DNA of 64,000 nucleotides, taken from contig OZ260661.1 of the NCBI GenBank assembly GCA_965285935.1, positions 21,142,001-21,206,000 on the forward strand, written 5' to 3'. Origin of the DNA: Ophelia neglecta (lineage: Eukaryota). The notes under the pieces are model-generated. The model made no database searches. It saw nothing but the letters and a program-made list of their open reading frames with translations, and had not been told where the DNA came from. Position 1 is the first letter of the stretch. Each line of letters begins with the position of its first letter. The position numbers and the translations under genes were made by a program. This document shows positions 8,125-59,991 of this stretch, in pieces.

Positions 8125-9039
8125 ACAAGTAGGCCAGCGGGCCCACGGTCTCCCGTCGCTAAATAAATAATTGGCAAAAAAGAAGATGGACAAGAGACGT
8201 ATATTAATGGTTGCGAATCAGTATGAGCCACTGAGGTGATTAATGACTACGGGGTATATGGAAATGATATGTTCAAACTTCACACAAAGGTTCTCCATCA
8301 GCCACGGGTGTGTCTCCTCTGCGTTCAGTTACCCCAAAAGGCACAACTAGGGCCCATGTGGGATGTTCCTGTGAAGTTTGGTCACAATCGGCCCAATAGT
8401 GCGAGTGATATGCTCCAGAAAGCAAACATTGCCAAAATTACACAAATCGGGCTCCTGTTTTGCATAAAAAGTAGGCCAAAGTTCAGTGACCCCAAAAGGA
8501 ACATCTAGGGCCCATGGGGAATGCTCCTGTGCAGTTTGGTCCCAATCGGCCCAGAAGTTTCCGAGATATGCTGTGGAAATGAAGCATTGCCGAAATTGCA
8601 CAAATCTGGTCCTTGTTTTGCCAGAAGAGTAGGCCAAAGTTCAGTTACCCCAAAAGGCACAACTAGGCCCCATGGGGAATGTTCCTGTGAAGTTTGGTCG
8701 TAAGCGGCCCAGTAGTTTCCGAGATATGCTCCGGAAACGAAGCATTGGTGATATTGCACAAATCGGGCCCTATTTTCGCAAGAAAAGTAGGCCAAAGTTC
8801 AGTTACCCCAAAAGGCACAACTAGGGCCCATGGTGAATGCTCCTGTGAAGTTTGGTCCCAATCGGCGCAGTAGTTTCCGAGATATGCTCCGGAAACGAGA
8901 ATGGAACGGACAGACGGACAGACGGACAGACGGTCAGACAGACGCCTGATGCGTGTGGGACTTTCACTTGTGGGACTTTTCATTTTATTTTGTGGGACTT
9001 TTTGAATGTGATCTTACGGTTGTTGCTTGTGGGACATCC

Positions 9040-10330
9040 GAAGAAGTCCCACATGTGGTGCCCATCGATGTAGGTCCCACATGTGATGTCCATCAATAAA
9101 GTCCCATATACGATGTCCATCAATAAAGTCCCACATATGATGCCCATCAATAAAGTCCCACATACAATGTCCACCAATAAAGTCCCACATACGATGTCCG
9201 TCAATAAAGTCCCACATACGATGTCCACCAATAAAGTCCCACATACGATGTCCATCAATAAAGTCCCACATATGATGTCTATCAATAAAGTCCCACATAC
9301 GATGTCCGTCAATAAAGTCCCACATACGATGTCCACCAATAAAGTCCCACATACGATGTCCATCAATAAAGTCCCACATATGATGTCTATCAGTAAAGTC
9401 CCACATGTGATGTCCATTAATAAAGTCCCACATACGATGTCCGTCAATAAAGTCCCACATACGATGTCCACCAATAAATTCCCACATACGATGTCCATCA
9501 ATAAAGTCCCACATATGATGTCTATCAATAAAGTCCCACATACGATGTCCACAAATAAAGCCCCACATACGATGTCCACCAATAAAGTCCCACATACGAT
9601 GTCTACCAATAAAGTCCCACATGTGATGCTCACCAATTAAGTCCCACATAATATGCCCATCAATAAAGTCCCACATAATATGCTCATCAATAAAGTCCCA
9701 CATATGATGTCTATCAATAAAGTCCCACATACGATGTCCACCAATAAAGTCCCACATACGATGTCCACCAATAAAGTCCCACATACGATGTCTACCAATA
9801 AAGTCCCACATGTGATGCTCACCAATTAAGTCCCACATAATATGCTCATCAATAAAGTCCCACATTAGATGCCCATCAATAAAGTCCCACATACGATGTC
9901 CACCAATAAAGTCCCACATACGATGTCCACCAATAAAGTCCCACATACGATGTCTACCAATAAAGTCCCACGTGTGATGCTCACCAATTTAGTCCCACAT
10001 AATATGCCCATCAATAAAGTCCCACATAATATGCCCATCAATAAAGTCCCACATTAGATGCCCATCAATAAAGTCCCACATTAGATGTCAACCAATAAAG
10101 TCCCACATACATGTACGATGTCCACCAATAAAGTCCCACATACGATATCCACCAATAAAGTCCCACATGTGATGCTCACCAATTAAGTCCCACATAATAT
10201 GTCCATCAATAAAGTCCCAGATTCTGTGTCCATCAATATTGTCACAATTTTAATGGCCATAAATGAAGCCCCACATAAATGAATTCCCAACATGTGATGT
10301 CCATCAATATAGTCCCACGCCATGATTATA
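9040..10330. repeat. 21-bp subterminal tandem array (consensus CAATAAAGTCCCACATACGAT-like, about 55 units)
   Basis: Directly visible. Each unit carries AGTCCCAC, the reverse complement of the GTGGGACT motif in the termini. Confidence 0.95.
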
Positions 10331-10991: not shown

Positions 10992-13900
10992 TTAAACAAC
11001 CTGGTTTGAACCACCCTTCTGTAAACTTGCCAACCCTGCCCTATTCATATTCGATATTTTCTTGACAATGAGACTACAAGTCCTCCTACACAGTTTTCCC
11101 CCTTTGTCTTTACTTTGACTCAAAGCCTTCAAACACAACTGCTTGGAAGGACATGTTCTGGTCCTAAGACATTCACTGAAATATAGGTGAACCTCCTCCA
11201 TCTCCTTCTTGTCCCAAGGGACTCTCTTGGCTTTAACCTTTATTTTCTGTACTTCAGTAACATTTTTATCCTGGACATCATCATCATCTTCAGTCATGGC
11301 ATTCAAGTATGACAAATTGCCAATGTCATCATCCATGATGGGTGGGGAATCACTGATACTGGAAGGAAGGGATAGTGGGTCCAAACCTGGATCAACTTCT
11401 GTACCTACTTCTTCGCGCAGTCTCTTCAAAACCAGTTCTACAAAGAGATGACAATATAACATATTAACTAACACAACTTGCAATAAACAAGCAGGCTGTG
11501 AATTGCTCAGGGAGGCCACATGTAATAAATATTAGTGATAAAACATTACAGAAAAATGCATTATTACTTATGTAAATAATAATGGGATTTGTTTGAAATA
11601 AATACCCTCTGTATAAACCTAATCCGATTTTTGTAATCTTTTGTTAATAAAAAAATTCAATATTGTATGATTGCAAAAAGAGCACTGCCACGGCTCTTGA
11701 CTTCCTAGCAACAAACTTATGAGGGCTGAGGAAACCACCCTTAGGCACCAACAAGACTGGCAATTGGTCAAAGAGAACAACTGTGACATATATAAAGCAA
11801 ACATGTAAATATCTTTAATAAGACCAAAAAACAAATCTTATCAGTCATTAATTTTTCCATATTCCCCAATGTCATTGATGCATGTTTACAGGGCACAATT
11901 GAAATTATTTAAATCCCCAGTGTCTTGGGCAAAGCTACAAATATTGTAACACCCATGATAAGTCAATTTGATCAAAATATTTGTTGCTTCTAAGCTTCGA
12001 AGATAAACATTCTATTATCAAACCAAAGTTGCGTTCAGTAATCACTTACCATTCACCTTGACCTTGTTTAATTTTTCTCCTTGAAATTCCTTCGTCAGGT
12101 TGAGGTCTTCAACCAGCATAATTTTTGCGATTTCACATCTCTCCACTAAGCCACTCATCTGGCGATAGTGCGCCAAATGCACATCCTTTGAATGACCTAG
12201 GTGATCACACAAACATTGTAACTGCTGATCATTAAGGTCCAGTACCTAGAAAACAAAATATTCCTATTTTTATCAGATAATTATTAAAAAATATACTATG
12301 AAGCTTTCAGTCCCTGGAATTGTATGTAAAAGTATTGTCCCATATGTAGAGTCCATAAAATAGAATGTTTGGAAGTACAAAAAGTCTCATAATAGGTGTC
12401 CAAAAATAAGGTCCCACAAACAAATAAAAAAGTGTGTATCATAAAGAAAGTCCCACAAAATTAGGTCCCATAAAAAAAGTGTTCATTATATAGTTAGTCC
12501 CAATAGTAGAGAGTCCCAGAAATTGAGTCCAAAATTGAGGCAACATAAATAACAAGTGTCCATAATCTACTATTAAAGTCCCATGAGAAATAAGTCCCAG
12601 AAAGTGTGACACAAAATAATAAAGACCCAACATTACAGTGTCCATGATATTGAAGATCCCACAAATATACTAAGTCCCCAAAGTAGACTGCGAAACTAAT
12701 TTTTTTTTATAAATTCCCTTCATTACAGATTAAGGGAACTGTACTCAACTTATTGTGGTACAAGCATTACCAGAAAAACCAACTACAAAATTCCTCCCTG
12801 AAGTCATAAATAGTATTGATACCTCAATAAATAATGTAGGAAACAAACCTGGGAGAGGGTGGCTGTGTATTTTCGAAAGGAAACACTAGTCATTTTCTGT
12901 GGGCATTTGAGGTCTGTGCCGGAGCACACTGCTTTCACGGATTCGTAGCTTCTTGCACTGCAACGACCTACAAAGGAAATGAAAAAAATAAGGGGGGTGA
13001 ACTCTTCCCTCCAGCTCTGCTTCAGGATCTATTTCCCTACTTACTGCGACTGCTTGTGGGCATTTGCTGTTTGCAGACAATTTTAAATTGAATATGGAAT
13101 AGTTCTTGTTTGTATTAATATTGTACCTTTGCTAGGAAATAGCCAATTAGTTTCTGGGTATCCCATCCTCTTGCGCATTGTCGGATTAGATATTTCAAAC
13201 AAAGCATCCTTGGTATCTGCAGGAATCAGCACAGGCACAGGGCGACCTCTCTGAAATGGTTTAACACAACTCTTCACATATGATCATAAAGCGTGCTGAA
13301 ATAGAGGCCCCCTTCACTTTTATATCCTAAGATGTTTATTTTAACACAATTCAAAGTTATATTCTGGTATGCTGTGGTAGAAATTAGTCACTCGGGGCAT
13401 GCATCAGACACAAATATTACTAAGGTTCGCATATACTGTAGCAAGGGAAATTCTCAACGGAAGAAATATTGCAATTATTTATATTTTACACCTTACATAC
13501 AGATTGCCCATGCCTTGCCTGATGTGAAGGGTTCTATTAAAATGGGCAGCTTGAAAAATTAATATGACAAAAACAAACCTTTCCTCTGACAGTCATCATA
13601 TCCTGTCCTTCTATAAGGAATTTTTCCAATTCTGTTAGTTCTGCTACCAAAGATTTGTCGAAGTCAGACAAGCCTGTGGATCTTTCTGAATACTGCTTCA
13701 AACTACAAACAAATAATACTTAATAACCATACTAAAAATATTAATCATAATAATTATGAAGGTATTAAATTAGAAGATCCCACCAAAAATAAAGGCAAAC
13801 AAATAATAAGTGTCCATAATATTGAAAGTCCCACAAGAATAGTCCCACAAAATAAGGTCCCATAAGGAGTGTCCATAATATAGCAAGTCCCACAAGTAGA

Positions 13901-16900
13901 AAGTTACAGAAAATGCTCTTGGCAAATAATGCATTGAAATAGGACAATAATGCTTGACACCTCTGAACTGAGTAATTCTCATTTTTGTTGCTGCCAAGAG
14001 TGTATCGTCTGCAATTTACATTTACTTTTAGTTCACTTGCTTATTAAATATTGTGGCTTTTATCTATGATCAGAGCACCAGGCGATTTGAATTGCATGCA
14101 CCTCACAAAAGTAAGTGGTAGTAAGCATTTCTGCCAGTCTGTCAGTTTGACCTTGAAAAATGGGTCACAGAAAGGCTTTCAAATCGTCAGTTTGGCCTTG
14201 AAACATAGGTCACTATTTGGCTTCCAAATCACGTTTGGTCAATATTTCTACATGATGGTACAATTATCATAATTGTAATATGAAAATGTAATTATTATCA
14301 ACTGAGAGGAAATACTTGACTTACGTTATCTGATCTATTTCTCCTGCCCTTCTCTTGTTGTACAGAAGTAACCGTGTCTGAACTAGTTGGATCGCCATAC
14401 GGAATTCAGTGTCGTTGATGTTCTCCCATTCCATTTTTTTCAACTCTTTCATTACATGGAGAGTCAACTTCTCTACATCTTCAGGCGAAGGAACAGGTGA
14501 TTCTTTGTTGAATGTTCTGGTTGTCAGTATGTACCGGGCATGCCGAGTCACTCGTTCCCCCCACTCTATTTTCATCAGACGAGTGAATACATCACATTGT
14601 GTGGCCTGATTTTCATCCACCCCTGACTTGCACTTTTGGATCAAAGCCCATTTCAGGTTAAGTAGTGCCAGGATATCATACTTCAACCGTAGCACATTAG
14701 ATGGTGATTTCAAGTCTTCAATGTCATCCATGTAAGGGTATGCACACATAATAGTACCATCAACTACTTTATCAAAGAAATGAGGTACGAGGAAGTCCCA
14801 CATGGTTTTTGATGCATTTGAAGTAGACACATTAGCAGCGCCTTGGACATCTGTGTCCTCACCATCTAACTGTCGAATATTGCTCAGCAGTCGGGCCATC
14901 AATCGCATATGTTGCGAGGCATAATGCTTTGCCTTAACATTGCCGATGCTTCGCCTATACCATGACTCCCCTAAGGCCACTATAAGCACATCCTCCTTTG
15001 CTGTTTTGGACACTGCATCCCTGGTCATTATTGTGAAAACATTTTCAAGTAGTCCTTCTGATGGTTTAACTTTCAGTCTGCCACTTATTATGTCTGATTT
15101 GACCAGAAGCCCCCGCTTTGTTTGTGATTTTGGCTTTGTGCTTGTCGGCTTTGTGTGTGTGGGCGTTTTTCTTGTGGGCTTTGTCCCAGATATGCTCTGG
15201 ATGGAACCTAATGTGTTGTTAACATCGGCTGCAATATTGTCAAGGTCAGGTTTTTCGGTGCACTTTTTCTCGTGCCTCTGTATGGTGAATTCAAGCATCC
15301 ACTCAAAGCAGTGTGGACAGGGACACACATCTTTCTGGTTGAAAAACTTCTTTGGTCTTCGGCCAACAAGAAGTTCACCCTTCCCTCGACTAATAACTTG
15401 TACATTGTGGTCATGATCTCCTTTTCTTCTTAAGGCATTGAAATCTCCCAAAACAACTCCGGGTTCTGCCTTATGCACCCTTTTGAGATGTGGCTGAATG
15501 TGCAAAAATAACTTGCCGCAGTAACAGCATGCATGCTTGCTGTTGTAAACTCTATCACCTTTCTTCTTTGGTTGCTTACTGTGTCCAGTAGACTTTAATA
15601 TTTTCCTAATGAATACTTCTGGATTGTCAGCGGCTCTCAAAATGGTACTTTCATCAACCCAAACATCATCAGACATCTGAGAAGGAGAGTCATGGGTTTG
15701 TGTGGGAGATGTTGTATGTGGTGAGTTAGTTGACTGTTGTTTTGCTGCTGATCCTGGTGAGCCATCAAGAGTACTTTCATCAAGTCCAACATCATCAGAC
15801 ATCTGAGAAGGAGAGTCATGGGTTTGTGTGGGAGATGGTGTATGTGGTGAGTTAGTTGACTGTTGTTTTGCTGCTGATCCTGGTGAGCCAGTGAGGGGAG
15901 AAGATAGTGGTAACACAACTGGTGATGTGAACTCTACAGACTTTGAACGAGGAGTTAATGTTGATAATGGTGTGCTTTTTGAAGTCAATCTTCTTGTGGG
16001 GGAAACTTCTGGTGATGAGGATCCTAAAGATGAAGATCTTCCTGAACCAGACAAGGAGCTTCCTAAACAGGTAGCTAGAAAGCAAAATTCATGAAGAGTG
16101 ACATTTGATTTTCATTTGCACAAGGCGATTTCATTTTCCAGTCTACTTCTTTTATTCAAACAGAATAACCTCTTTGATGATGTACCATGGTCTTATGACA
16201 TAGCTTTCTATACTGTAAATACAATATTTCTTGGTGAATATGTAGAATAAAATCTGATTAATTATTTACTCTCAACAGATGCAAAAAATTAAAATGAGTT
16301 CTGCTAATGCAGAACAGGCAATGATTCGAGTAGTCTTCAAAAATCTTTGATAGGAAAAAAATGCATTTACACAGTTACTGGGATTGAATTTCCAATCAAA
16401 ATTCACTTCCTGCCACAGATTTCCAAATAAAATTCATGTATATTACATGCTGATACGAGAACCATTTCAGAGTTGGCAAAACCCCGGAGAAAATTACCAA
16501 ATCCACTAGTCAAACACGAGACAACACAATTGAATATTGTGTTTGAATAAACTGCCCCGTCCATCGTGGTGCAAAGCTACATTGGTGGATCCGAATCCGA
16601 TCTGAATCTATCTATTTCACTACTCGTAAATATCGGAAAATACCTATTCAAGTCACATCATGGCTGGTATATTGCAAGCAATGCATGGAGGATTCGAATA
16701 ACAGTGAAAGAATAGAGTATTAAGTACGTCAACCTGGTCCATTGATTTGTATATTTACTGAGGAAATAGATTTTTGCTTCAATACTGACTTCGAAACTAC
16801 AGTCTGTATTTTGCCACTCCTTGGCTCCGCCCAGTGTCCCACGTAGATGGCTAGCTCTAAAATTTGAATCATAAAAATCTGCCTGACGAGTAAAATTTCT

Positions 16901-19900
16901 TATCTAACCAGGTACAAAATACAAGTTTACTTACACGTATTATGTCTTTTAGGTGGCTTGTATTCATCTTCACTGTCCTCTTGTGATGAAATCTCTGATG
17001 AGCTCTCCTGCGTAGGCCTCCCCCTTTAAAATAAAATTTGAAAATTGATAGAACAGCTAGAATGAGAAATTTTGAGAGATTTATTGATAGGAAAAATTAC
17101 TTATTGAGGAGTTTAAAGTACTTAAAAGGCATGATGCAACAGTCACATTAACCATCTATTTTGGGGTCTGATAAAATATCTTTGAATTATTCAGGACAAA
17201 TAATGCACTCAATTCATATTTAATGGAGACTATAAACAAACCTCAGTCTTGAACTGCTCAGTGAAGGTAGTAACGGAATCACTGGTGAAACTGGTTGTGA
17301 AGACGGTACATAATCGCTCTCATCAGAGGAAACTGCAAACAAAAAATGAATTTCTTAAATAAATTTCTTGTCCCCTCAACACTGTAGGTTTAATAGCAAC
17401 ATCAATTCTGTTCCAAAACAACCAGTGGCACATTTCTCAGAGTGGGACTTACAATTAAATATTCATTCTGTGACTAGTCTTTCCAATGAACACATTGAAC
17501 TGTATTTCAAATAGCTACCATTTTAGAGGGCCAAAACCATGGCGACTAATAACCTTAATGTTTAAGGACAAGCTTTTTAGATAAATATTGCTAGGAGTCC
17601 GTGCAAATCCTTGTATATAAAATTAGCCTAACATCTACCAAGTAGCACTGTTAAATTGCACAAGGATTCTATAACTGTAACAACGACTTTTTTCTCTGAA
17701 ACACACCAATTTGTTCTGTAGTAGACAGTGGATCCACATCATGGTCCATGGTCTGGTTGTTGGGACTGGCCCCACTGCATCCTACACAAAAGAGATTATT
17801 CATCAATGCATTATCAATGTTTTGAATTAATAAAGTACCAAGTAGCACTGTTACATTGCACAAGGATTCTATAACTGTAACAATTGATTTTTTTCTCTGA
17901 AACACACCAATTTGTTCTGTAGTAGACAGTGGATCCACATCATGGTCCATGGTCTGGTTGTTGGGACTGGCCCCACTGCATCCTACACAAAAGAGATTAT
18001 TCATCAATGCATTATCAATGTTTTGAATTGATAAAGTAGTTTCACAAGACATATCTAACTAGGCTACTATTATGAGAAGTACAGGCCTATCTTATATAAG
18101 AGCCAGGCCAGTGTCATAAAGGAAAATTTCATAAGGGCTAGGTAGGCCTGGTCTTCAAGTTATAAAATATGTTCCTTAATTTGAGTATGTTAAATTCAAA
18201 TGAAACTGCCTTCTTATAATCACCTGATTCACCTTTTTCTGCCAATGCTTCACAATGTCCGAAATCAGCAAGAAACTTCTCCATGTGAGTAGATTTCATT
18301 TTCCTCAAATGTGCTGGAACAGAGATATAATTGGAAATGAAGATAATTATATCATCTGGAAATCAACAAGGTTTAATGTTGTACAATGTCTATATGCAGT
18401 GCTGTCACCTCCTTGCTAGCAGGCTGTACTAAGATTGTTACATCATCTCCGACTGACCCTACTCTCCTCTGATTTATTAAAAGGTAATGCAAAGGAACAC
18501 GTTTCGTATGACCTCTCTTGGGGATATTTAATGTCTTTAGCCATGTATATATATAGCTTTAACAACTAACAGTAAAATCAGTAGGGTACAAAAGTAGTGA
18601 GTCACTTATCATGTGAAATTGTTAGCAAAGTGTCAGTATTTGTGTATGTGGAGAATAAAAGTTAACTTATTTCTCATCCTTCGGGGTCAACCCCTGGAGT
18701 ACTTTAGGCCAGTCTTAAAATTATTCTTGTTGCGGGTAAGGGGCCCCAAAAAATCCATAAGGTAGGTAGTAGATAATTTTTTAATGAGTGGGTTGGCAAC
18801 ACTATAAATTTACAGCAAGTATTCACGTAGGAAGAAGTGAGAATTGCGGCTTTGCTTACAGGAAGCGGAAATAAGATCAAGAGTTAGTCTAACTGCATTT
18901 CCGTTTTCCCAACCTGTGGGCCGAACAAGCCTAGCCATTTGTTGACTGGTAGACTCGGTATTGTCAAAATCACATCCTTTATAGGACAATTTGAGCCCAA
19001 AAAAAGGTTTTTCGGAACCAGTAAAAATTATGTTTGTGCGGGGGGTTTAGGCACCATACAGCCGGGTTACCGGCAACGAGAACATTTTAAGACAGGCTGT
19101 ATACAATACAGGCATTACAACCATCTTAGCCGAACTGGTTTTGACTCGGCGTAGCACATAGCTATTGCATCGTCCGGTTGTGACGGAACAATGTAAACTT
19201 ATTGTATAATAAACTGGAAAACAAAAGGTCAAGTTAGCTGTAATAATCAATTGTGTTAGTCTGACAATCTAGATTACCGATTCCTTCATCTCTCTGGGCA
19301 AGATTGCTTCTTGCAACAAAGCTTCTCACCCTTGTGCTAGTCCTTACTTCTTCCCTGTATGTACATTTAATATCAGATGATACATGGAGGCCTAAGTGTT
19401 TTTCCATTTACAAGTAGGGAGCGGGAAGGGATAACCTATTCAAAACTCAAGAGGAGGGAGGTCAAAACAACCACACAGAATCAATGGTCAAATAATACAG
19501 AATTTAAGGGATGACATGGCCGTCCTAGGTTAAAGACTTAAATTCTTAATTTGAGTGCTCATTTCCCTTTCTGATTTAAAAGTCGGGGTTAGTTTCTGAA
19601 TTGTCATAAGGGCCTTCAGGCATGAGCATTCAGTATAGCCAAAATAATTATCTGCGTGGCACGTGATTCAATATTCTCTAATGTGGAGACTAGACTGAGT
19701 CGCCATGGCAAATTGTGATATCAGGCTTCATTCATGTGGCCGAAGCCAAGCAAATCTAAACTGTCAATTGATCTCTGCCAATTACTGATGCGTCTGAATG
19801 CTTACATCCAGCGGCCCCTAATTTTGTCAGCATGTAACTGGAAAAAAAGCATTTCTTTTTTAGGACTTCACATGTTTCCAGTATTGAATTACAATTGGTG

Positions 19901-20839
19901 ACGGGAAGGGCAAAAAAGTTTTTATTGCCAAAAACCCAACCCATGTTGTCCTGCTGCCAGCAATTTACCATAAACTTCAAACTAGTTTCAACACTGAGCT
20001 TGTTTACGGTTAAATCACTCCACATAAAACACAGAATATATATTTTGTTATGAGTGGTGTACTGAATAAGGTACAAATTATACTTACACACAATTTTCAT
20101 TGAAGAACCCAACAAACATACTGTTATCATTGACTCCGATAACTTTAGCAGGCCACCACACATTGTTGCCTGTCAGCTTCAACCAAATGGGCTCATCAAG
20201 ATTGTACTGGTCTGAAAATTGAAGATACTTTTTGGTTAGGTGCTTCATAAAAGGCAGAAATAAACTGCACATTCACAACTCAACTGAAGTACTTCCAAAT
20301 ATAGTACATATTGATGACAATCTCACCATCATTGCAGCTAAATACATGTAAATGTGTCTTATTTTATTGTTTTGGCTGATTAAATAATAAATGTCTACCA
20401 GGAATATCTGTGATCGGTTTTACTTACTTTGAATTTGCACTTAACTTAAACACTGTTACTCAATGTAAGTAGACTATTAACCCTGCGATTCATGAAAAAA
20501 AGGTTTTGGTGTTCCAGAATATGATATACACTTATCAGAATTTCACAAGAATCAAATCAGTTCTTTCTCTCAGTGAGGTCTATGGCTGTGTCAATTTTAA
20601 GAAAGATGTATGAAATGGTTTTTGAGGTATCGTGTTAACGACTAAAATCTTCAGCGGGTATGGCGGTGGCGGCTCAATAGATTCCATAATATACGCATTT
20701 CACAGATATTCACGCATAGAAGTATGGTGTATCAACGGAGAAAAAGTGATTCAAATTCATGAAACTTACATGGGTCTAGATGCTTGCTTTTAGGTGCAAG
20801 GCCTTGGCCTGCACCCCTTCTTCGCCTTTTTCTTGGCAT
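10992..20839 (-). CDS. 14-exon tyrosine recombinase (~1149 aa) with N-terminal PWWP/Tudor-like domain, Zn fingers and C-terminal Myb-like helix bundle
   Basis: Hand-spliced exons: 20770-20839, 20088-20211, 19278-19354, 18224-18313, 17908-17982, 17707-17781, 17242-17332, 16935-17023, 14325-16074, 13579-13702, 13127-13250, 12849-12967, 12050-12245, 10992-11437. All are GT-AG and phase-compatible, totalling 3450 nt. YR motifs are LLYNKRRAGE, VRGK-RGRPVPVL, TSVSFRKYTAT and CDHLGHSKDVHLAHYR. The PWWP-like segment is PIWLKLTGNNVWWPAKVIG...MFVGFF. Confidence 0.8.
12330..12690. repeat. Intronic degenerate AAGTCCCA/GTGTCCAT repeat cluster (related cluster at 13770-13900)
   Basis: Repeated AAGTCCC(A) and AGTGTCCATA motifs, inverted relative to the 21060-21550 cluster. 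Confidence 0.7.
17630..18040. repeat. 201-bp tandem duplication containing a 75-nt symmetric exon
   Basis: Two near-identical copies, each holding a phase 1-1 exon GCSGASPNNQTMDHDVDPLSTTEQI. Confidence 0.9.
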
Positions 20840-21770: not shown

Positions 21771-22853
21771 TTACTTTTTTTTTTCAGGTTAATAATAAAG
21801 TAAACTAGTTTCACTTATTCGACCACATATGAACCCAATGATAATGCAAAATAACCTCAACTATTCTTTACTGGGTTAATAATAAAGTCAACTATATAGT
21901 TAACTCATCACACTCCATATGAAATCAATAATAAGGCAAATGTTATTTTTTTCAACTAATAATAATAATCAGAATTTTACCAGAATCAAACTAGTTCTTC
22001 CTCTCAATAAGGTCTATGGCTGTGTCAAATTTATGAAAGATGTATGAGATGGTTTTTGAGTTATCATGTTAATGAGCACAGGACAAGTGGCCCCTGCAAG
22101 TTACATGCCTGTATTTTGTGTGAATAAAGATACCATGTCCTATAGTCTCTGGGGATGGCCCAGTAAATAAGAATTTTTTGTAAGGTTTGAAACAGGTACT
22201 GCATTATTGCAAATAAGTCTTAATCTTTTGTGGTGGTTGTCATTGGTGAACACCTTTTTCGGAACAGTAGAACCCTTGAATTTCACCTGACCGACAGGCA
22301 GATGTAAGTTATCACTTGCCCATGTGTACTTTTTACTCCTACAAAGTAAATAGAACATACTTACTGCCAGACCCTGTTCAGTGTGCCAGTTATTTTGTGG
22401 GACTTGGTTGTGGTTGAACTTTCTATATTATGGACACATTTATTTGTGGGGCCTTTGCTTTGGACACATTTTCTGATGCATAGTCCTGCATTCGATGTGG
22501 GCGATAAACAGAGAAGGAAGAAGCAAATTCGGACCTTGTACCATAGCTGCACTCGTTTTAACACAGTCACGGAGGGGCGAAATACGCCGCTTAAAATTGT
22601 CGGCGGACTTTAAACAGATCGAGTGAATCAGCCATGCGCCCGCCCGCTGGCGTGTGAAACGAGCGGGCCTATGTTTTTTGTATATTAAATAAACCAGTTT
22701 ACTACATATTTTATTTGTTCTTCAAAGTTTAATTGTTCGATCAATTAATGAGACCGCAGTACATATCAGTCAGTTAATCTGATTAACAGTAGATTTTTGT
22801 TCATGTGCTCCGATCCTACCGGGGACCCACCATGCACCAGCCTGTACATGGAC

Positions 22854-23374
22854 CAATGCCAGTCAACTCGGCCCTCTTCAAGCTCGGCCCCCTTCAAGCT
22901 CGGCCCCCTGCATACTCGGCCCCCTGCATACCTGCCTACTACTACAAAGTCGGCGCTTACAAATGTTTGTGCTATCAATGTTCGTAATATACATGCCTCT
23001 TGCTGCCTACCAATATAATAACTCTATTTATATCAACTCGCAGAAATATTGCTTCATTTTCCCCGATGGGCAATAAAAAGGTGCCGTTGACACATGGCGG
23101 CCTTCCTTTTGTCAGCAAACCATCATGCATGCATTTGTCAGTTTACCATGATTTTGAAATGTTATTTCCAGATTTTGATGTTAACGGCACCTATTATCGC
23201 CCATCGGGGAAAACGAAGCATTGATTCTGTGAATTGATATAAATAGAGTAATTATATAGGTATGGCAAGAGAGAGGCATGCATATTAAGAACATTCAACC
23301 AATAAACATGTGTAGGGGCCGACTTTGTAGTAGTAGGGGGCCGAGCTTGAAGGGGGCCGAGTTGACCTGTTACC
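22854..23374. mobile_element. MITE with ~200-bp imperfect inverted arms and an 8-bp TSD (Mutator-like, tentative)
   Basis: TSD ACATGGAC at 22846-22853 and 23375-23382. Arms read GTCAACTCGGCCC... / ...GGGCCGAGTTGAC. Confidence 0.8.
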
Positions 23375-24055
23375 ACATGGACGAACTGAAAATGGTGCTT
23401 GCAACCGGAAGTATACTTGTGGGACTTGGGAAAATCGTTTTTTCTTGGCTCTTTTTCTTGTAAAACATTTTAATAGCTAATCATGGAAAAGTTTGTTGTT
23501 GAATTAACTTTTCAAGATATCATTTGTTTTTGCTTTGGATTCTCTTGATTTGTGCACATTTTAGGGCGAAAACTTTATCCGGAAATCAGCGAACGTCGCG
23601 AACTTAGCATGTACCTACTGGATTGAACTATCTATAGATCTACCTCGAAACTTCTGCAAAATGTAATGAAAAGATATGTGTTAGGGCTGGAACAACCAAA
23701 CCAGTGGTTCCAGGTTAGGGTGCTCAATAAACAAATCGAACCCACTTGGATTTTACGACATAAGCCTAATTGTGACATTTGTTTATGTATATCGCTCAAA
23801 CTCGAACTGTCAAACTCGTTCACGGCAGACGGGAGGGATTTTTGTGGGACTTTTTGCACGTGTACGTGTATTATTAAAGAATCGAAATATTCCTATATGA
23901 AACCTAACATAACATCTACAGATTAATCATTTAGTCTAATTAATGGATGAACAGCAAGCAGGCACCAGATCTGCGAATATCGCCCGTCCTAGTCAGCCTA
24001 CATATTATGTTTAACGTGACTGTCAAATGTCGCAGACCTGGAGCACCTGGCCAAT

Positions 24056-24494
24056 TGTAGTAATGTAGGTAACGTCGTGGGTATAAGGTATTTCGAACGA
24101 CTTTATTCGGCTATATACAGGTGGAGATACATGTAGTATGATACAATATAATCTGCAAACAAATAAAATAAAACTTAATGTAAAATAAAAGTACAAATAA
24201 GGGGAATGAAGCAAACGTTTCTTAACGACAAGCATGCCGAAAATTATAAGACTCCGTGCTACATACATGCAGAAAATATAATACTTCATGCTCCATAATT
24301 TATATAAGTAAACAAATGAATAATCTTACCCAGTGAGGGACGGGATTAAATGTAACTTGACATAGTCGAGCCAGGCCAGGTACACACACGAGGAAGGAGG
24401 AATTGCAATCCAACGGGGATCTAATTCACTACATACATGTACGTGTGTCCTGTTCAGCTACCAGGTAAGTTATACCTTTACATTCGAAGCAGCC
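24056..24494 (-). mobile_element. Inverted partial Gypsy LTR (3' part) retaining a 177-bp GT-AG intron (24153-24329)
   Basis: 24056-24152 is the reverse complement of 29143-29239, and 24330-24494 is the reverse complement of 28978-29142; both look identical by eye. The insert reads GTAAG...TTTGTTTGCAG on the minus strand. Confidence 0.9.
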
Positions 24495-24524
24495 AATGGG
24501 CTATCAATCCCGTACGCTGGTATT

Positions 24525-27500
24525 GTGACACTTGATATTCGGGTGGGCAATGTTATTTTTCCGGATCAGGTATTTTTTCTGGAGGATGACACAAAGTTAT
24601 CCCCTGATGGACCAGGTGTGACTATCGGGTGCAATATTTTCAGACAAATGGCTAGACAGGAAGGGCTTGATTTTACCAATTTACCACCTCTATGGCAGAC
24701 CTTTGTTTCCCTGTTTGCCGAAGAAACTACCCCTGCTAGATCTAGTCTTGTCAGAGTCGGCTTTGAACCAGAGTTGATCCCTGCAAATTGTATGAGAGTG
24801 GTTCAAGGTCGTACTCGATCTTTTCCTAAGGGAAGAAAAACTCAGGGTTTAGTACAAGCCACTAGTGGTAATTATGGTTGTTTGCCACGGAACATAATAG
24901 TGATTAACTCCTTGACCAACATAGAAAAACAGAATGCAGCTGTTAGAGTTATTAATCTTAGTGATCAGGATATTTGGCTTCCAGCAAGATCAGTTATTGG
25001 TATCCTATACACTGATGCCACAGTACTAAATCCTGATAATGTAGAAGTCTCTGTCACAGATGACGTAATAGACGTGTCTGTTCGTAGGGTCAATGTAGAT
25101 TCCCCCACCGTCGCTAGTGTGATCTCCACCGAGTCGGACCGGCCTGAATGGCTGAAGGAGATTAAACTCAATGATTCCCTTGATATTGATCAGAGATTGA
25201 AGGTGCTCAATCTTCTAAATGATAATAAGGATATTTTTTCTCACGAAGGTGACCTACTTTCCCAGACACACAAGGTCACTCACGAAATACATCTTAGTGA
25301 TGACAAACCTGTCAAGTTACCTCATAGGCGAATTCCCCCTCACCTCATCCCTGAGGTGAAAGAACATATCGATGGGTTGTTGAAATCAAAGATCATCAGA
25401 CCCAGCTCAAGTCCCTATGCGTCCCCGGTTGTTTTGGTTAGAAAAAAGGACCAAAGTTTACGTTTATGTGTCGACTACAGACTTTTAAATGCCAAGACAA
25501 TCAAAGACGCATTCCCCTTACCGCGAATAGATGAAGTTTTAGAAACTTTAAAAGACTCTAAATTTTTCACTACACTTGATTTAAGTCAGGGTTACCATCA
25601 GGTACCAATGGCCCCTGGTGATATACACAAGACTGCTTTTCGTGTCGGTACTGGCAACCTCTACGAATATTTGCGAATGCCCTTTGGATTAGCCAATAGC
25701 CCCGCCACATTTTCAAGGCTTATGGAGGCTTGCTTTCATGACCAAAATTTTGAGATTCTTATTTTCTTTCTTGATGACATTTTGATCTATTCCAAAGACT
25801 TTGAGTCTCAGATTGATAGACTGCAAGTGGTTTTCGACATTCTTCGAAAAAACAACCTCAAATTGAAACTGAAAAAATGCAATTTTTTCCAAGAGGAGGC
25901 TCATTACTTGGGGCATTTGGTAAAGAATTCTGGTATTCAGCCCGACCCAAGCAAAATCAGCGTGATCAAGGATTGGCCTACCCCCCAGACAGAGGAACAA
26001 GTGCGCAGTTTTATAGGCTTGGTAGGCTTCTATCGTAAATTCGTGAAGTCCTTCGCCTCTATTGCTAAACCACTACACTCCCTCTTAGGTAAGGCCCCTC
26101 GAAAAAAAGGTTGGAAAAAGACTGAAACTCCATTGACTGGTGCTTTCAAACCCAGGTGGACCCCTGAGTGTGAAATAGCATTTAACACACTGAAAGAAAG
26201 ATTGTGCTCCGCCCCAGTCCTTGGATATCCAGATTTTTCCAAACCTTTTATCCTTGAAACTGATGCGAGTTTTTCTGGCCTGGGCGCAATTCTTAGCCAG
26301 GACCAGGAAATTGGCCGTGTCGTGATTGCGTATGCGTCTCGCTCACTAAAACCAGCTGAGCGGGACGATCACAATTACAGCTCCATGAAATTGGAGTTAC
26401 TTGCCTTGAAATGGGCAGTAACTGAAAAGTTCAGGGATTACCTGATTGGATGTCCCCACTTTTCTGTGTTTACAGACAACAATCCTCTCAGTTACCTTAA
26501 AACGGCTAAATTAGGTGCCGCAGAATCCCGGTGGGCTGCCCAACTAGGGCAGTTTAACTTTGATATCTTTTTCAAAAGTGGAAAGTCTAACGCCAATGCT
26601 GATGCATTAAGTCGTGTTCCTCGACAAGTCAGCGAATCACACATTGATGCCATTTTAGATGAATTGAATGATAGTACAAAGATTCCTATATCAGTTCAGA
26701 AATCTATTGTAGAATCTGTCCCCACTATCCCCTTTACGTGGCCCAGTGAATACTCTGCTGATGATCTCCAAGAGGCTCAGAGAGTTGACCCTTGTATTTC
26801 ACGTGTGTGCCATTTATTGGATGGAAAACACAAACCTACTAAGCGACAGTTATCCAAAGAAACTATGGATGTTCGTCGCTTATGTTCAAAATGGGAACAC
26901 TTCAAAGTACATGACAATCTCTTATTCAGAGTGGTATGCCTTAATGGCATAGAGACTTATCAGTTTGTCGTCCCCATGCCTATGCGAAAATACATATTGT
27001 CACTCTCACATGACCGCGCTGGACATCAGGGAGTAGAGCGTACATTTTCCCTCCTTAGAAAGAGGTGCTTTTGGGTGAGAATGTACAGCGATATTACCAG
27101 ATATTGTTCGATGTGTCAGCGTTGTATGATCGCAAAGGCAGGAAACACAAATCCCACAATTTCAAGTCTTGTTGCTAGAAAACCTTTAGAAATACTAGCG
27201 ATTGATTTCACCTTGATAGACAAATCCTCCAATGGTTTGGAAAATGTTCTAGTGATCACCGATGTCTTCACTAAATTCACAATAGCTATTCCATGTAAAA
27301 ATCAAAAAGCCAACACAGTGGCCAAAGTTTTAATTCGGGAATGGTTCCAACATTACGGGATTCCTAAACGTCTCCATTCCGACCAAGGTCGTAGCTTTGA
27401 AGGTCATGTTATAAAGGAACTGTGTGACTTATACAAAATAAAGAAGACTAAAACAACCCCGTATCACCCGGAAGGAAACGGTCAAACGGAACGGTTTAAC

Positions 27501-28508
27501 AGAACTTTACACGATCTGTTGAAATCCATTCCCCGTGAAGATAAGAAAAGATGGCCCAAATTATTGCCTGAGTTGACATATATTTACAATGCCACTCCGC
27601 ATAAATCTACAGGTCTTTCCCCCTTCTATCTGATGTTTGGCCGTGACCCTGTGTTGCCACTAGACATGGTGCTTGGTTCCCTAGGCCCCAGTGATTCCCT
27701 GGATCCGCACCCGAAACCTTCCTCACAGAGTGTTTCCGATGTGGACCCATGGCTCACAGAGCACCAAACAAATCTCCAGTATGCATATGAGCATGCTGCT
27801 TTAGGCACAGAAAAGCGTGCTGCTCAAAGGAGAGCCCTATACAACTCCCGACCTGGAGTAGATGACAAGCCCATCCCTGTTGGTGGTAGGGTTTTTTTGC
27901 GTAACAGGCCACTAGGCCGCAACAAAATACAAGATAGATGGTCTGATGTCCCTTATGTTGTCATAAGAAAACCCGACACTAACGTCTATACTGTAATCCC
28001 TGCCTCAGGCGAGGGAGAAGCAAAGAATGTGTCTCGGTCATCACTTCTTGATGCCCGTCCTTATTATAAGGGAAACCCTTGTTCTGAGTCGGTGGAGTCC
28101 CCATCCCCTCCAACTAACCTTCACCCGGTTAAGTCGAGGCATGGACACTCCTCTGACGATGAAAGTGACAGTGAAAATGAAGTTTCTTGGCATGAAGTGC
28201 ATGTTCCTACTGACTTCACCTCCGTGATACACCCCCCGGCAACAGAGGTCATAGAAACTAGCAAAAGTCATGAACCAGAAACTGTTATTCTAAGGCAAAA
28301 TCCTGAGCATGTACCTATTCCTAATGTGGAGGTTAGTCTGCCGACAGTTATTGTTGAACCACCTGCCACTGGAATTGCTACAGGTAATAATAACCAGATG
28401 CCTCGTAGATCGTCGAGAAGCAATCTGGGAGTACATAGTAATCCACACAATTTGCCTCGATCAGCAGTTGCATCTAGAAACTGGATAAGTTCTGAAATTT
28501 ATGTTTAA
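24525..28508 (+). CDS. Gypsy/Ty3 pol (C-terminal half of protease, RT, RNase H, integrase); gag and the protease active site are missing
   Basis: Open for 1327 aa. Motifs: SPYASPVVLVRKKD, LRLCVDYR, MPFGL, FLDD, ETDAS, LELLALKWAV, zinc-binding H-H-C-C (HDRAGH...CSMC), IDF, SDQG, GQTERFNRTL. The upstream frame reads EAANGLSIPYAG. Confidence 0.95.
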   Translation: MTLDIRVGNVIFPDQVFFLEDDTKLSPDGPGVTIGCNIFRQMARQEGLDFTNLPPLWQTFVSLFAEETTPARSSLVRVGFEPELIPANCMRVVQGRTRSFPKGRKTQGLVQATSGNYGCLPRNIIVINSLTNIEKQNAAVRVINLSDQDIWLPARSVIGILYTDATVLNPDNVEVSVTDDVIDVSVRRVNVDSPTVASVISTESDRPEWLKEIKLNDSLDIDQRLKVLNLLNDNKDIFSHEGDLLSQTHKVTHEIHLSDDKPVKLPHRRIPPHLIPEVKEHIDGLLKSKIIRPSSSPYASPVVLVRKKDQSLRLCVDYRLLNAKTIKDAFPLPRIDEVLETLKDSKFFTTLDLSQGYHQVPMAPGDIHKTAFRVGTGNLYEYLRMPFGLANSPATFSRLMEACFHDQNFEILIFFLDDILIYSKDFESQIDRLQVVFDILRKNNLKLKLKKCNFFQEEAHYLGHLVKNSGIQPDPSKISVIKDWPTPQTEEQVRSFIGLVGFYRKFVKSFASIAKPLHSLLGKAPRKKGWKKTETPLTGAFKPRWTPECEIAFNTLKERLCSAPVLGYPDFSKPFILETDASFSGLGAILSQDQEIGRVVIAYASRSLKPAERDDHNYSSMKLELLALKWAVTEKFRDYLIGCPHFSVFTDNNPLSYLKTAKLGAAESRWAAQLGQFNFDIFFKSGKSNANADALSRVPRQVSESHIDAILDELNDSTKIPISVQKSIVESVPTIPFTWPSEYSADDLQEAQRVDPCISRVCHLLDGKHKPTKRQLSKETMDVRRLCSKWEHFKVHDNLLFRVVCLNGIETYQFVVPMPMRKYILSLSHDRAGHQGVERTFSLLRKRCFWVRMYSDITRYCSMCQRCMIAKAGNTNPTISSLVARKPLEILAIDFTLIDKSSNGLENVLVITDVFTKFTIAIPCKNQKANTVAKVLIREWFQHYGIPKRLHSDQGRSFEGHVIKELCDLYKIKKTKTTPYHPEGNGQTERFNRTLHDLLKSIPREDKKRWPKLLPELTYIYNATPHKSTGLSPFYLMFGRDPVLPLDMVLGSLGPSDSLDPHPKPSSQSVSDVDPWLTEHQTNLQYAYEHAALGTEKRAAQRRALYNSRPGVDDKPIPVGGRVFLRNRPLGRNKIQDRWSDVPYVVIRKPDTNVYTVIPASGEGEAKNVSRSSLLDARPYYKGNPCSESVESPSPPTNLHPVKSRHGHSSDDESDSENEVSWHEVHVPTDFTSVIHPPATEVIETSKSHEPETVILRQNPEHVPIPNVEVSLPTVIVEPPATGIATGNNNQMPRRSSRSNLGVHSNPHNLPRSAVASRNWISSEIYV

Positions 28509-28843
28509 TTTGGTGTGTAAAATTGAAAATCCTAGGTATTGTACAATTTATGTTACTTATTGATTATTCGAGTAAGATTATTTGCATTCTAGTGTAATTA
28601 ATTAATTCTTGAATCATGTGTATACAGAGTCAACTAGACACTTCAGTGACTAAATTGCGACTTCGTCGTTAAGGCCTAAAACTAATGTAATTTGGATCCT
28701 TGTAAATATTATTTTGCCCATATAATTGAGCCATGTATTTTGGTATGAATTGTAATTGTAATATTCTGCACAATATTCATGTTTTTAAAAAAAAGTCTTC
28801 AGCATATTAATTATGAGGACATAATTTTTTAACCAGGGGAGTG

Positions 28844-29239
28844 TGTAGGCAGGTAAATCGCCCGCCTATTAGTTTTCTTTCACATCGCTAGGTGGTCTTA
28901 TTCCCGCCTTCAATAATTACCTTTGTTAGTCTGACATTCCCGCTAGGTGTCACTTAGCCATATGCTTCCCAAGCGCGGGCTGCTTCGAATGTAAAGGTAT
29001 AACTTACCTGGTAGCTGAACAGGACACACGTACATGTATGTAGTGAATTAGATCCCCGTTGGATTGCAATTCCTCCTTCCTCGTGTGTGTACCTGGCCTG
29101 GCTCGACTATGTCAAGTTACATTTAATCCCGTCCCTCACTGGATTATATTGTATCATACTACATGTATCTCCACCTGTATATAGCCGAATAAAGTCGTTC
29201 GAAATACCTTATACCCACGACGTTACCTACATTACTACA
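28844..29239 (+). mobile_element. Gypsy 3' LTR (intron-less form)
   Basis: Preceded by a purine tract AACCAGGGGAGTG. Ends are TGTAG...CTACA, with AATAAA at ~29189. Confidence 0.9.
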
Positions 29240-29520: not shown

Positions 29521-29831
29521 GATTCCTATGGTGTAGACCTAAGTTATTTCAATTGGAACCAGCAGGTGGCGTCTGATACCAGTCATGTCCATGCCATGGA
29601 CACATTTTGTCCCAGAAACTGTCCAAATTTTTTGTGGGACTTCATCTCTCAAATTGTTTGGACTAGCTTCTGGGACTAAAATAAAGTGTCCATGTGATTT
29701 TGTATCTGGGACTATTTTTAAGTCCCACGAACCCAAAAAAGTCTCACGCGCATCAGTCGTAAAGACGGACAGACGGACGGACAGGGCCATTACTATGTCT
29801 CCCTTCCGCCGCTCCGCGGCGACGGGAGACA

Positions 29832-30390
29832 ACAAGCAATAGAAAGATTGGTACAAGCACAAGGTCAAGTATGGAATGCAGAGAAAGAACAGCGAAACTA
29901 AACATCGGAATAGACCCAGGTAAACATCATATGGTATAATCCATCATTCTCTACGAATGTAAAGACAAATATCGACAAGGAGTTCTTCCGTATATTAGAT
30001 GAAGAATTCCCAAAGAATTCAGAGCTACACAAAAACTTCAACAGGAATACAGTGAAACTGAGCTACAGCTTCATGAACAATTTGAAAAAACATTATAGAT
30101 GGACACAAGAACAAACTCGAAAAAGGAAGAAAGTTGCATTGTAAAAAGATGTCATTGCCAGAAAAAACATGTATGTCCATTGGACGGGAAATGCTAGAGA
30201 GAAAGTGTGATACATTAAGCGAAAATTACACCTAAATCAAGAGATATTAAACCAGAAATATACCTTGGATTAACAGAGAACAATATCAAAGTTATATATA
30301 GAAACCATAAAGCTTCAATCACAAACAAAGAAATTGTACGGAACTTAGCAAATTTATATGGAAACTAAAAGTTACCTGTGAGGATTTGAC
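29832..30390 (+). pseudogene. Penelope-like retroelement continuation (thumb, linker and GIY-YIG endonuclease), decayed
   Basis: Joining 8124 to 29832 restores YQQAIE. Downstream motifs are [42 protein letters not shown] and IYLGLTE...NHKAS. Confidence 0.8.
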
Positions 30391-35724: not shown

Positions 35725-36019
35725 CCTGCTTGGGCCTTACCCATTGTCGATTAATGCCAATTTGTAAATTATTTTTTATTTTTGCAATTTTTTTTTCGCA
35801 ACATGACATCATCAGCTGACGACGTCATCTCTGTAACAACAGTCTAAGTATTTCACTGTGTGACGCAAAAGACATCAACTGTGACGTCACCGTTTTGCTA
35901 ATGTTGGCATCCCCTTAGAGCCATAGTTCTTCAGCTAATTTTACAATTCCAGCAACATTTTATTGTACGTTGAGCAGCTACCTCATGCGGATGGACTTTT
36001 TTATCTTGCACTTAGTTCA

Positions 36020-46945: not shown

Positions 46946-47587
46946 ATCACAATATATATATTGGTTACAAATGTAAAATTGATTTAAAAAAATCACAATT
47001 TGACATGCTGCCCCTTTATATCACAGAACTAATACTGAAATGGCATAATGACACTATGATATAACATCATTCAACACACTGAATGAACACAAATTCAGCA
47101 CTTATAACATTTATACATGAGAAGGTTTTCTAGTATGTCATATCAAAATATTTGTTAAATTCATACATTCAGTAAATGCAAAATTGTTGTACATGTATAA
47201 TGAACATGTATCGCTTAGGGACAAAGTATCACTTGATATATTGTAGGTTGCATATTTTAAGGCACGAGAACAGACTGCGACACAAGGGAATACGGAGTGA
47301 TAACGAGGTTATCAGAGATGTTTCTGAAAACTGTATTGAAATTTGAAAATTTTGGTACAGGCAAATTTATCTACCAGATTATTATGACAGTGGAACTCGC
47401 GAAAATACCTGTGAAAAGAAGAACACAGTCCAAAATGTAATGTGCACTGTGTCTCCCATGGCTGAGTCATCACTTCAAACCCAACGTCAAGGAATATGTA
47501 CATACGTCCATGTATAAATCACATAAAACATTTGTATAGATGAGACCATGATACCATTCAAAGGTATGCATCACATACAGTAAATTA

Positions 47588-49350: not shown

Positions 49351-49665
49351 TAGTTACAGCTCCCGGTCAAGGTCGGGAAACTCCCTTTAGTAAGCAAATA
49401 TCTATGACAAATTACACAAAAACGTTTTCCACACTTGGGGAATTCCCTGCGGAACTTGTGTACATCAATTGTGAGACCCCCTCTAGGCCCCAATTGACCA
49501 ATACCTCGGTACTACGGTGGCCCGCCAAAATGATGCATAAATGCATCGTGCGGCGTTAGTAGGCGATGCATTTATGCATCATGCGGTGTCTGTAAGTGTT
49601 GCATTTATGCATCGTGCGCCGCAAAAGGGTTAACATGTCCATCTTCCGTTCCCCATATGTGCTTA

Positions 49666-57769: not shown

Positions 57770-57999
57770 TTTACCATCCGGCACACACAGGCACGTCACT
57801 CTGCACCCGAATGCCCCCACCGTCCTGGCGCCCAGCAAGGTGGATCTTCCAAACGCGGACAACAGCATCAGGACACAAAACAACATGAATGTGTGTACCT
57901 AGCTAGCAACCAAATACTAAATAGCTTAATCTCTTTCCAAAATTCATTGTTGTTCACATTGTTATTGTACATGATTTTGTCTCCTCCGCGGGTAGCAGC

Positions 58000-59925: not shown

Positions 59926-59991
59926 ATTAGTTGTAGGCTTGAGGTATATTTTGTTCCTTTCACTTCATTGCATATCGTTTGTTTATTTCAG

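What the first reader, a model, noticed from the sequence alone, without database searches (positions are those of the whole stretch)
18224..20839. PWWP/Tudor-like chromatin reader fused to a tyrosine recombinase
Seen: the first exons encode a basic NLS-like MPRKRRRRG, then YNLDEPIWLKLTGNNVWWPAKVIGVNDNSMFVGFFNENC, and a following helical segment (MEKFLADFGHCEALA). They are in frame with the YR, and an RGRP AT-hook-like motif follows. Established: PWWP domains have a VWAK..G.PWWPA.V...V.FF signature and bind methylated H3K36 nucleosomes, and LEDGF's PWWP tethers lentiviral integrase. Inference: the element has a built-in chromatin-targeting module on a site-specific integrase. I know of SET-linked relatives of this YR family but cannot confirm whether a PWWP fusion has been reported.
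Basis: partly seen in the sequence, partly recalled or inferred. Interest (0 to 1): 0.75.

Follow-up and report, generated by a model that had tools for sequence, protein, structure and literature searches.

The report
PWWP-headed microsatellite-targeting recombinase transposon
An animal DNA transposon sits in a short tandem repeat, and its intact-looking gene joins a tyrosine recombinase to a divergent PWWP chromatin-type domain that is kept across several animal phyla but lacks part of the usual methyl-lysine pocket, so the domain likely grips nucleosomes or DNA rather than reading H3K36 methylation as host PWWP domains do.

Summary
The fusion is real; the H3K36me-targeting reading is doubtful. 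A 12-exon minus-strand model (20839-10992) is open for 1,096 aa: basic N-terminus, PWWP-like domain, zinc fingers, tyrosine recombinase (YR) with R-K-R-H-Y intact. A relative's domain folds as PWWP (pLDDT 89.7; top nine structure matches are PWWP domains); Pfam misses it. The gene lies in a ~15-kb element (8945-29763, plus two nested inserts) with imperfect inverted ends, inserted in a GACG microsatellite of a host repeat; empty sites exist. The PWWP-YR layout occurs in most YR subfamilies checked here and in mussel, oyster, scallop and priapulid proteins. This element is a mosaic, with a PWWP type from a distant lineage (AU p=7e-5). No RNA data were available. Nothing in my paper searches describes a PWWP-YR transposon; the scan noted Crypton-like microsatellite YR elements in two other genomes, without PWWP. 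New variant of a known kind.

The parts
20770..20839 (-). Exon 1: ATG and basic NLS-like peptide
   Evidence: similar basic first exon with the same phase-1 donor found in 3 other subfamilies (C1d, C7, C26) and both near copies, not found in most of the other loci scanned
20088..20211 (-). Exon 2: PWWP strands 1-3 (W..WWP..FF)
   Evidence: Pfam PWWP E=0.14 only; 43 genome matches; profile of 14 copies hits PWWP/Tudor structures
19278..19354 (-).
   Evidence: Top PSSM hit, 22.5 versus 11.3 for the next; AG/GT ends, phase 2 to 1
18233..18313 (-). Exon 4: PWWP C-terminal helices
   Evidence: in two other subfamilies this helix is in the same open frame as the YR
16935..17332 (-). Exons 5 (17332-17242) and 6 (17023-16935): Ser-rich linker; RGRP at their junction, not conserved
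14325..16074 (-). Exon 7: linker repeats, two zinc-finger-like motifs, YR DNA-binding region, first catalytic Arg (R753)
   Evidence: about 40% identity to Mytilus P0001
12050..13702 (-). Exons 8-11 (13702-13579, 13250-13127, 12967-12849, 12245-12050): YR catalytic domain K802, R875, H901, Y910
   Evidence: Motif table across 15 proteins; fold of a relative matches XerH/XerD
10992..11437 (-). Exon 12: acidic linker and conserved C-terminal three-helix (Myb/homeodomain-like) domain, stop
   Evidence: helices 749-814 in model of P0013, one homeodomain match Z 6.9
8941..8964 (+). Left end: GACG core (8941-8944) and inverted-repeat arm (8946-8964), followed by a 27-bp tandem array to about 10300
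   Evidence: Five copies share the junction; array
29738..29767 (+). Right end: inverted-repeat arm (29738-29756; 17 of 19 match to the left arm) and GACG core (29764-29767)
   Evidence: Three copies; arm match read by eye
8323..8944 (+). Host repeat, left half (158-bp units and GGAC/GACA microsatellite): the target
   Evidence: joined directly to the right half at 12 of 14 other sites
29764..29835 (+). Host repeat, right half (microsatellite and terminal hairpin)
   Evidence: 88 exact matches of a 31-nt probe in the genome, 0 for the control
22828..23380 (.). Nested MITE-like insert, absent from the C1:19.46 Mb copy, present in the C3 copy
24048..29239 (+). Nested Gypsy-type retroelement insert, absent from both near copies

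Best explanation
This is a ~15-kb DNA transposon inserted in a GACG microsatellite, whose predicted 1,096-aa protein carries a divergent PWWP domain in front of a tyrosine recombinase; the recombinase likely chooses the target sequence, while the PWWP domain likely acts as a general nucleosome or DNA tether rather than a canonical H3K36me reader. Shown: gene structure, element ends, empty sites, conserved catalytic residues, PWWP-type fold in a relative, selection on the domain. Inferred by analogy with Cryptons: the YR binds the two inverted arms, excises a circle and recombines it into the microsatellite through the short GACG core. Inferred: the PWWP raises the recombinase's residence on chromatin, which may bias which of many identical microsatellites is hit.
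For: Open 12-exon frame. Fold: AF2 of the Priapulus N-terminus, five strands and two helices, pLDDT 89.7; all 33 listed Foldseek rows are PWWP domains or proteins bearing one (best E 1.5e-4); VIA top BRPF1 PWWP Z 9.2, rmsd 2.9, 90 aligned. Linkage: 19 of 40 exon-2 hits have a YR hit within 20 kb downstream on the same strand, 1 upstream, 0 opposite; 8 of 10 further YR loci have a PWWP-like exon upstream; two subfamilies keep the last helix in the same 1,191- and 1,394-aa open frame as the YR. Selection: pS exceeds pN in 7 of 7 pairs over 34 codons. Target follows YR: the closest YR subfamily (C8:2.63 Mb, 40% identical, other PWWP type) sits in the same host repeat at the same microsatellite, while three subfamilies with this PWWP type but distant YRs are flanked by (CA/TG)n. 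Cage incomplete: W and F/Y kept in 14 of 14, first aromatic in 0 of 14; third position mostly Cys in the other type (aligned by eye).
Against: No binding data and no transcript. The fold was predicted for a relative, not for this spliced domain. This window's domain has no net positive charge (11 K+R, 11 D+E), which is weak for a DNA binder. Two cage aromatics and an acidic residue matching LEDGF E49 are kept in this subtype, and a trypanosome PWWP is reported to bind methyl-lysine but not DNA (PMC8638923, passages). A scallop homologue (P0032) has Tyr four residues before the Trp and Phe at the third position, so it may keep a full cage. The target-versus-lineage comparison rests on five subfamilies. 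The gap between the arms at a predicted circle junction would be 12 bp, longer than the 6-8 bp typical of YR sites (PMC3212892).
Confidence: 0.6

Rival explanations
1. The PWWP is a true methyl-lysine reader (H3K36me or another mark) that steers integration to marked chromatin, as LEDGF does for lentiviral integrase.
For: Trp and Phe/Tyr cage positions invariant in 14 of 14 copies of this subtype; best sequence matches include ZMYND11 and a TFIIS PWWP. Copies cluster: 18 of 30 exon-2 hits and 29 of 53 YR hits lie in two regions holding 5.3% of six chromosomes, against 3 of 70 target-repeat sites.
Against: First aromatic absent in all 14 copies and at that position in 13 outside homologues; the other subtype keeps mostly only the Trp. 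The clustered regions were chosen after seeing the data, duplicates were not collapsed, and selection or local hopping would give the same picture. No chromatin map was available.
Confidence: 0.22
2. The domain is a protein-interaction or self-regulatory module (oligomerisation, binding a host factor, evading silencing) with no role in where the element lands.
For: The most conserved parts across subtypes include the C-terminal helix. Target sequence is independent of PWWP type. Some trypanosome PWWP domains bind neither DNA nor methyl-histone (PMC8638923, passages).
Against: No partner is indicated by any search; PWWP domains are mostly chromatin binders (established knowledge).
Confidence: 0.13
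3. The PWWP exons belong to a separate transcript or to a host gene fragment that happens to lie upstream.
For: No RNA evidence. 21 of 40 exon-2 hits had no downstream YR hit, and some annotated models are PWWP-only (P0020, P0022).
Against: Exons lie inside the element's ends in three copies; phases match through 12 exons; helix and YR share one open frame in two subfamilies; fused annotated proteins in mussel, oyster, scallop and priapulid. The YR search used only 150 aa and a first-look filter, so unlinked hits include missed or broken copies.
Confidence: 0.05

Closest known systems
CryptonV, microsatellite-specific Crypton DNA transposons (Kapitonov and Jurka 2012, as cited in PMC8869645)
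   Same: YR-only DNA transposon inserted specifically in microsatellites, in animals.
   Different: This may well be CryptonV with an unnoticed N-terminal domain.
Crypton A/F/I/S (PMC3212892)
   Same: Intron-containing YR gene, no reverse transcriptase, short 4-bp direct core at the ends.
   Different: Those lack terminal inverted repeats and animal ones lack a C-terminal domain; this has inset inverted arms, zinc fingers, a C-terminal helical domain, an N-terminal PWWP, and Ser in place of the His of H-x-x-R.
Telomere- and rDNA-targeting YRs of endogenous nimaviruses (PMC10871703)
   Same: C2H2 zinc finger plus YR, incomplete catalytic set, microsatellite targets.
   Different: Those have a SAM-like N-terminus and sit in large viral genomes; this is a ~15-kb single-gene element. 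Homology was not tested directly; the viral fold library gave no match under E 0.001.
Transposons with built-in chromatin readers: chromodomain Gypsy integrases, PHD/Chromo-TE fusions (bioRxiv 10.1101/2021.11.30.470311), Tudor-Gypsy of Ectocarpus (PMC12477816)
   Same: A Royal-family or other reader domain fused to an integrating enzyme.
LEDGF/p75 PWWP tethering lentiviral integrase
   Same: PWWP fold (Z 7.3, rmsd 3.1, 79 aligned) linked to an integrating enzyme.
   Different: LEDGF is a host cofactor acting in trans with a full cage; this domain is element-encoded, in cis, and lacks the Y18 equivalent.

Membership tests
PWWP domain | Five-strand barrel followed by helices | tested here: met
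   In the Priapulus homologue; the window's spliced domain matches that family's profile over aa 29-108. The window's own domain was not folded.
PWWP domain | Pfam PF00855 above gathering score | tested here: not met
   Exon 2 alone 13-15 bits against a cut-off of 25.6; 5 of 14 copies match at E<=1; no hit in whole P0001, P0004, P0010. The spliced domain was not scanned.
PWWP domain | (P/x)WWP motif at start of strand 2 | tested here: met
   VWWP in the window; W-P invariant in 14 of 14 copies.
H3K36me-reading PWWP (LEDGF, ZMYND11, BRPF1 type) | Three-aromatic cage (LEDGF Y18, W21, F44) | tested here: not met
   Two of three; first position never aromatic in 14 copies. Sequence alignment only, cage residues from PMC10570030.
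H3K36me-reading PWWP (LEDGF, ZMYND11, BRPF1 type) | Binding to methylated nucleosomes | not testable with these tools
   Needs a binding assay.
Tyrosine recombinase | Catalytic R, K, H-x-x-R, H/W, Y | tested here: met
   R753, K802, R875, H901, Y910 present and conserved in 13-15 of 15 aligned proteins; the His of H-x-x-R is Ser or similar throughout. Residue roles assigned by motif.
Tyrosine recombinase | YR fold | tested here: met
   Model of relative P0013: top matches XerH Z 11.1, XerD catalytic domain Z 9.7, rmsd 3.2, 161 aligned; Foldseek best E 3e-3.
Crypton (sensu PMC3212892) | YR as only enzyme, no RT; short terminal direct repeats | tested here: met
   One gene; GACG at both junctions.
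Crypton (sensu PMC3212892) | No terminal inverted repeats | tested here: not met
   19-bp arms, 17 matching, set 1 and 7 bp inside the cores.
CryptonV | Insertion in microsatellites | tested here: met
   GACG-type for this and the C8:2.63 Mb subfamily; (CA/TG)n for three others.
CryptonV | Sequence/phylogenetic membership | not testable with these tools
   Repbase sequences not held.
Nimaviral telomere-type YR | Clusters with nimaviral YRs; viral context | tested here: inconclusive
   No nimaviral row among the 50 listed fold matches; no other long ORF of the element's own between its ends.
AT-hook | Conserved RGRP with basic flanks | tested here: not met

The most novel reading that the evidence does not exclude
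A cross-phylum clade of animal YR transposons uses two-tier targeting: the recombinase reads a microsatellite, and an ancestral, exchangeable PWWP module with a non-canonical pocket picks the chromatin state, so that swapping the module (as this element did) re-aims the element among identical sequence targets.
Probability: 0.25. Interest if true: 0.82.

Novelty: new variant of a known kind. Interest (0 to 1): 0.6.

Why it matters
It adds PWWP to the chromatin modules carried by transposons, on a sequence-specific recombinase rather than a DDE integrase, and shows that a widespread family annotated as 'uncharacterized protein' has a hidden conserved head. Natural pairs with the same target sequence and different PWWP types make it testable whether chromatin binding adds to sequence-specific integration, which bears on transposon niche choice and on building recombinases that work on nucleosomal DNA.

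Tried and rejected
A 32-nt micro-exon (19837-19806) gave an open frame but was wrong: it scores 7.7 bits against 19.1 for the model with exon 19354-19278. Pfam gave no PWWP or integrase hit on 19 full-length relatives. No RNA holder was listed; the three runs laid are contigs of one sample covering introns, with no splice joints: no evidence either way. Sequence search of solved structures with a whole relative found nothing useful. The first idea that the element ended near 22470 or 29400 was wrong; it runs to 29763. At the YR locus C12:34.03 Mb only the helix exon was found, not the strand exon; at C12:68.6 and C7:0.02 Mb none was found within the 20 kb fetched. The killifish chromodomain-YR model (P0019) was not counted as a reader fusion: it lacks most catalytic residues and may be a read-through annotation. 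No complex was predicted. Two papers sought were not held; the supplementary fusion table of the bioRxiv chromatin survey could not be seen and may list PWWP-transposon fusions.

Full report
Observation. The quoted peptides are on the minus strand where stated. Exon 2 ends in phase 2 and the helix exon starts in phase 1, so they cannot join directly (82 stops). My first bridge, a 32-nt micro-exon, was wrong. Divergent copies showed a 12-residue exon-3 core, and a profile of six of them picked 19354-19278 in the window (22.5 against 11.3 for the next hit). With it the 12-exon model is open for 1,096 aa. A profile of three annotated N-termini (Priapulus P0004, Mytilus P0001 and P0010) aligns to aa 29-108 at 19.1 bits; the best of 200 shuffles scored 5.2.

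The domain. Pfam PWWP is the best or second-best family but below its cut-off. A profile of 14 exon-2 copies hits 17 solved sequences at E<=10, which by their names are PWWP or Tudor proteins, best E 0.0014. The Atlas feature search puts PWWP clusters first at 0.89, a lead only. AlphaFold2 of the Priapulus domain (three-row alignment) gives five strands and two helices at pLDDT 89.7; Foldseek's best is a PWWP-ssDNA entry (E 1.5e-4) and the wide VIA search ranks 14 PWWP entries and then another PWWP first, top Z 9.2. The fold is therefore shown for a homologue and carried to the window by profile.

The recombinase. The body is 40% identical to Mytilus P0001. R753, K802, R875, H901 and Y910 are conserved; the His of H-x-x-R is replaced throughout. 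A model of relative P0013 matches XerH, XerD and Cre.

The fusion is old and general. In this genome 19 of 40 exon-2 hits have a YR hit within 20 kb downstream on the same strand, 1 upstream and 0 on the other strand (I dropped the 3 weakest of 43 exon hits and 3 second fragments of 74 YR hits). Eight of 10 further YR loci, some only 23% identical, have a PWWP-like exon upstream (E 0.013 to 2.5e-11). In two subfamilies the last helix shares one open frame with the zinc finger and first Arg. Among 19 proteins, 3 carry the whole domain and 6 its last helix. The representative search gave 13 hits, including oyster P0021 (PWWP plus YR), a scallop model with PWWP plus a YR piece, PWWP-only models from Owenia and unnamed sources, and two likely chance hits; scallop P0042 and six more oyster models also carry both parts. 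Synonymous change exceeds replacement change in 7 of 7 pairs over 34 codons. A basic first exon recurs in three other subfamilies; RGRP does not.

The element. Near copies at C1:19.45-19.48 Mb and C3:1.32-1.37 Mb (95-99%) and partial ones on C8 define ends at 8945 and 29763. Removing two nested inserts leaves about 15 kb. A 19-bp imperfect inverted repeat lies just inside a GACG core at each end. Four of 5 left junctions abut GGAC/GACG-type repeats (the fifth abuts internal sequence); 2 of 3 right junctions run into the microsatellite. The flanks are two halves of a host repeat (88 exact probe matches); in 12 of 14 other sites examined (15 of the 88 fetched, less the window's own) the halves are joined directly. 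Three other subfamilies are flanked by (CA/TG)n at the ends that pairwise alignment reached.

What the PWWP does. Using the LEDGF cage (M15, Y18, W21, F44; E49; PMC10570030, passages), the Trp and Phe/Tyr are kept in 14 of 14 exons of this subtype, the first aromatic in none. A second subtype mostly has Cys at the third position; one scallop homologue may keep a full cage. The window's YR nests (100/99) among YRs that carry the second subtype, while its exon 2 scores 88-130 against first-subtype exons and 28-53 against second-subtype ones. A single clade of first-subtype YRs is rejected (AU p=6.9e-5; 14 rows, LG+G4, one long-branch warning). So this element most likely swapped heads. Its closest YR relative checked, at C8:2.63 Mb, has the other PWWP type and the same target. 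Target sequence thus follows the recombinase. Copies cluster in two regions (six chromosomes only, the window's own site and one close neighbour left out of the control, regions chosen afterwards), which allows a chromatin bias but does not show one.

Mechanism. Most likely excision as a circle and integration through the GACG core, as proposed for Cryptons (PMC3212892, passages); the PWWP most likely tethers the enzyme to nucleosomes or DNA without a canonical H3K36me read-out (0.6). A true methyl reader (0.22), a protein-interaction role (0.13) and a separate transcript (0.05) are the rivals.

Against what is known. Microsatellite-specific YR transposons are known as CryptonV (PMC8869645, passages; PMC5753468, one table passage), and nimaviral YRs have a zinc finger, a SAM-like head and telomere targets (PMC10871703, section 10 and passages). 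Reader-transposon fusions are known mainly for PHD and Chromo (bioRxiv 10.1101/2021.11.30.470311, passages; supplements not seen), and a 2025 paper calls its Tudor-Gypsy the first transposon with a Tudor domain (PMC12477816, passages). Searches for PWWP with Crypton gave 0 papers; PWWP with tyrosine recombinase and transposon gave 4, 3 listed, of which I read passages of one (PMC11244446, unrelated use) and saw only listings of two; searches showed no such report in their listings; PMC13465315 has no PWWP. Repbase Reports and most subscription journals are outside this library, so the family itself is probably catalogued; the PWWP head appears not to be described in what I could search. The statement that PWWP domains are mostly chromatin binders and that LEDGF tethers lentiviral integrase is recalled knowledge.

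Verdict. Real, conserved and apparently overlooked architecture; function untested, and the specific H3K36me story is weakened. New variant of a known kind; interest 0.6.

Noticed in passing
window 24048-29239: Gypsy-type pol ORF (24366-28508, +) inserted in the YR element, with its two ends in inverted orientation (arms of 173 and 98 nt, 98-100% complementary) instead of direct LTRs.
   Followed up: no
window 56597-60792: DIRS/Ngaro-like element: gag-like, RT-RNase H and YR ORFs with a 158-nt direct repeat at both ends.
   Followed up: no
window 47260-49353, 61217-61795 and 34684-35736: piggyBac-like and MULE-like transposase fragments (family names from recalled motifs).
   Followed up: no
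window 8966-10300; 17636-18038: 27-bp subterminal tandem array inside the element, and a 201-bp intronic unit present twice here and about seven times in the C1:19.47 Mb copy.
   Followed up: partly
P0012, P0032, P0042: Scallop relatives add BRCT domains between head and YR (Pfam BRCT in P0012); P0032 may keep a full aromatic cage.
   Followed up: partly
P0019: Killifish MPP8 model joins a chromodomain to a YR of this family lacking most catalytic residues; domestication or read-through annotation.
   Followed up: partly
L085 and L094: Other sequences, both ending in a GTGAACAC motif, sit against the same host-repeat microsatellite: possibly another element using the same target.
   Followed up: no
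L025-L028, L050-L052, L115-L120: The linker between PWWP and zinc finger is made of unrelated tandem peptide repeats in each subfamily, up to about 2,000 aa, kept in frame.
   Followed up: no
window 18335-18441: Very high contig word depth (9,000-30,000) in DNA runs marks a short high-copy motif near the exon 4 acceptor.
   Followed up: no
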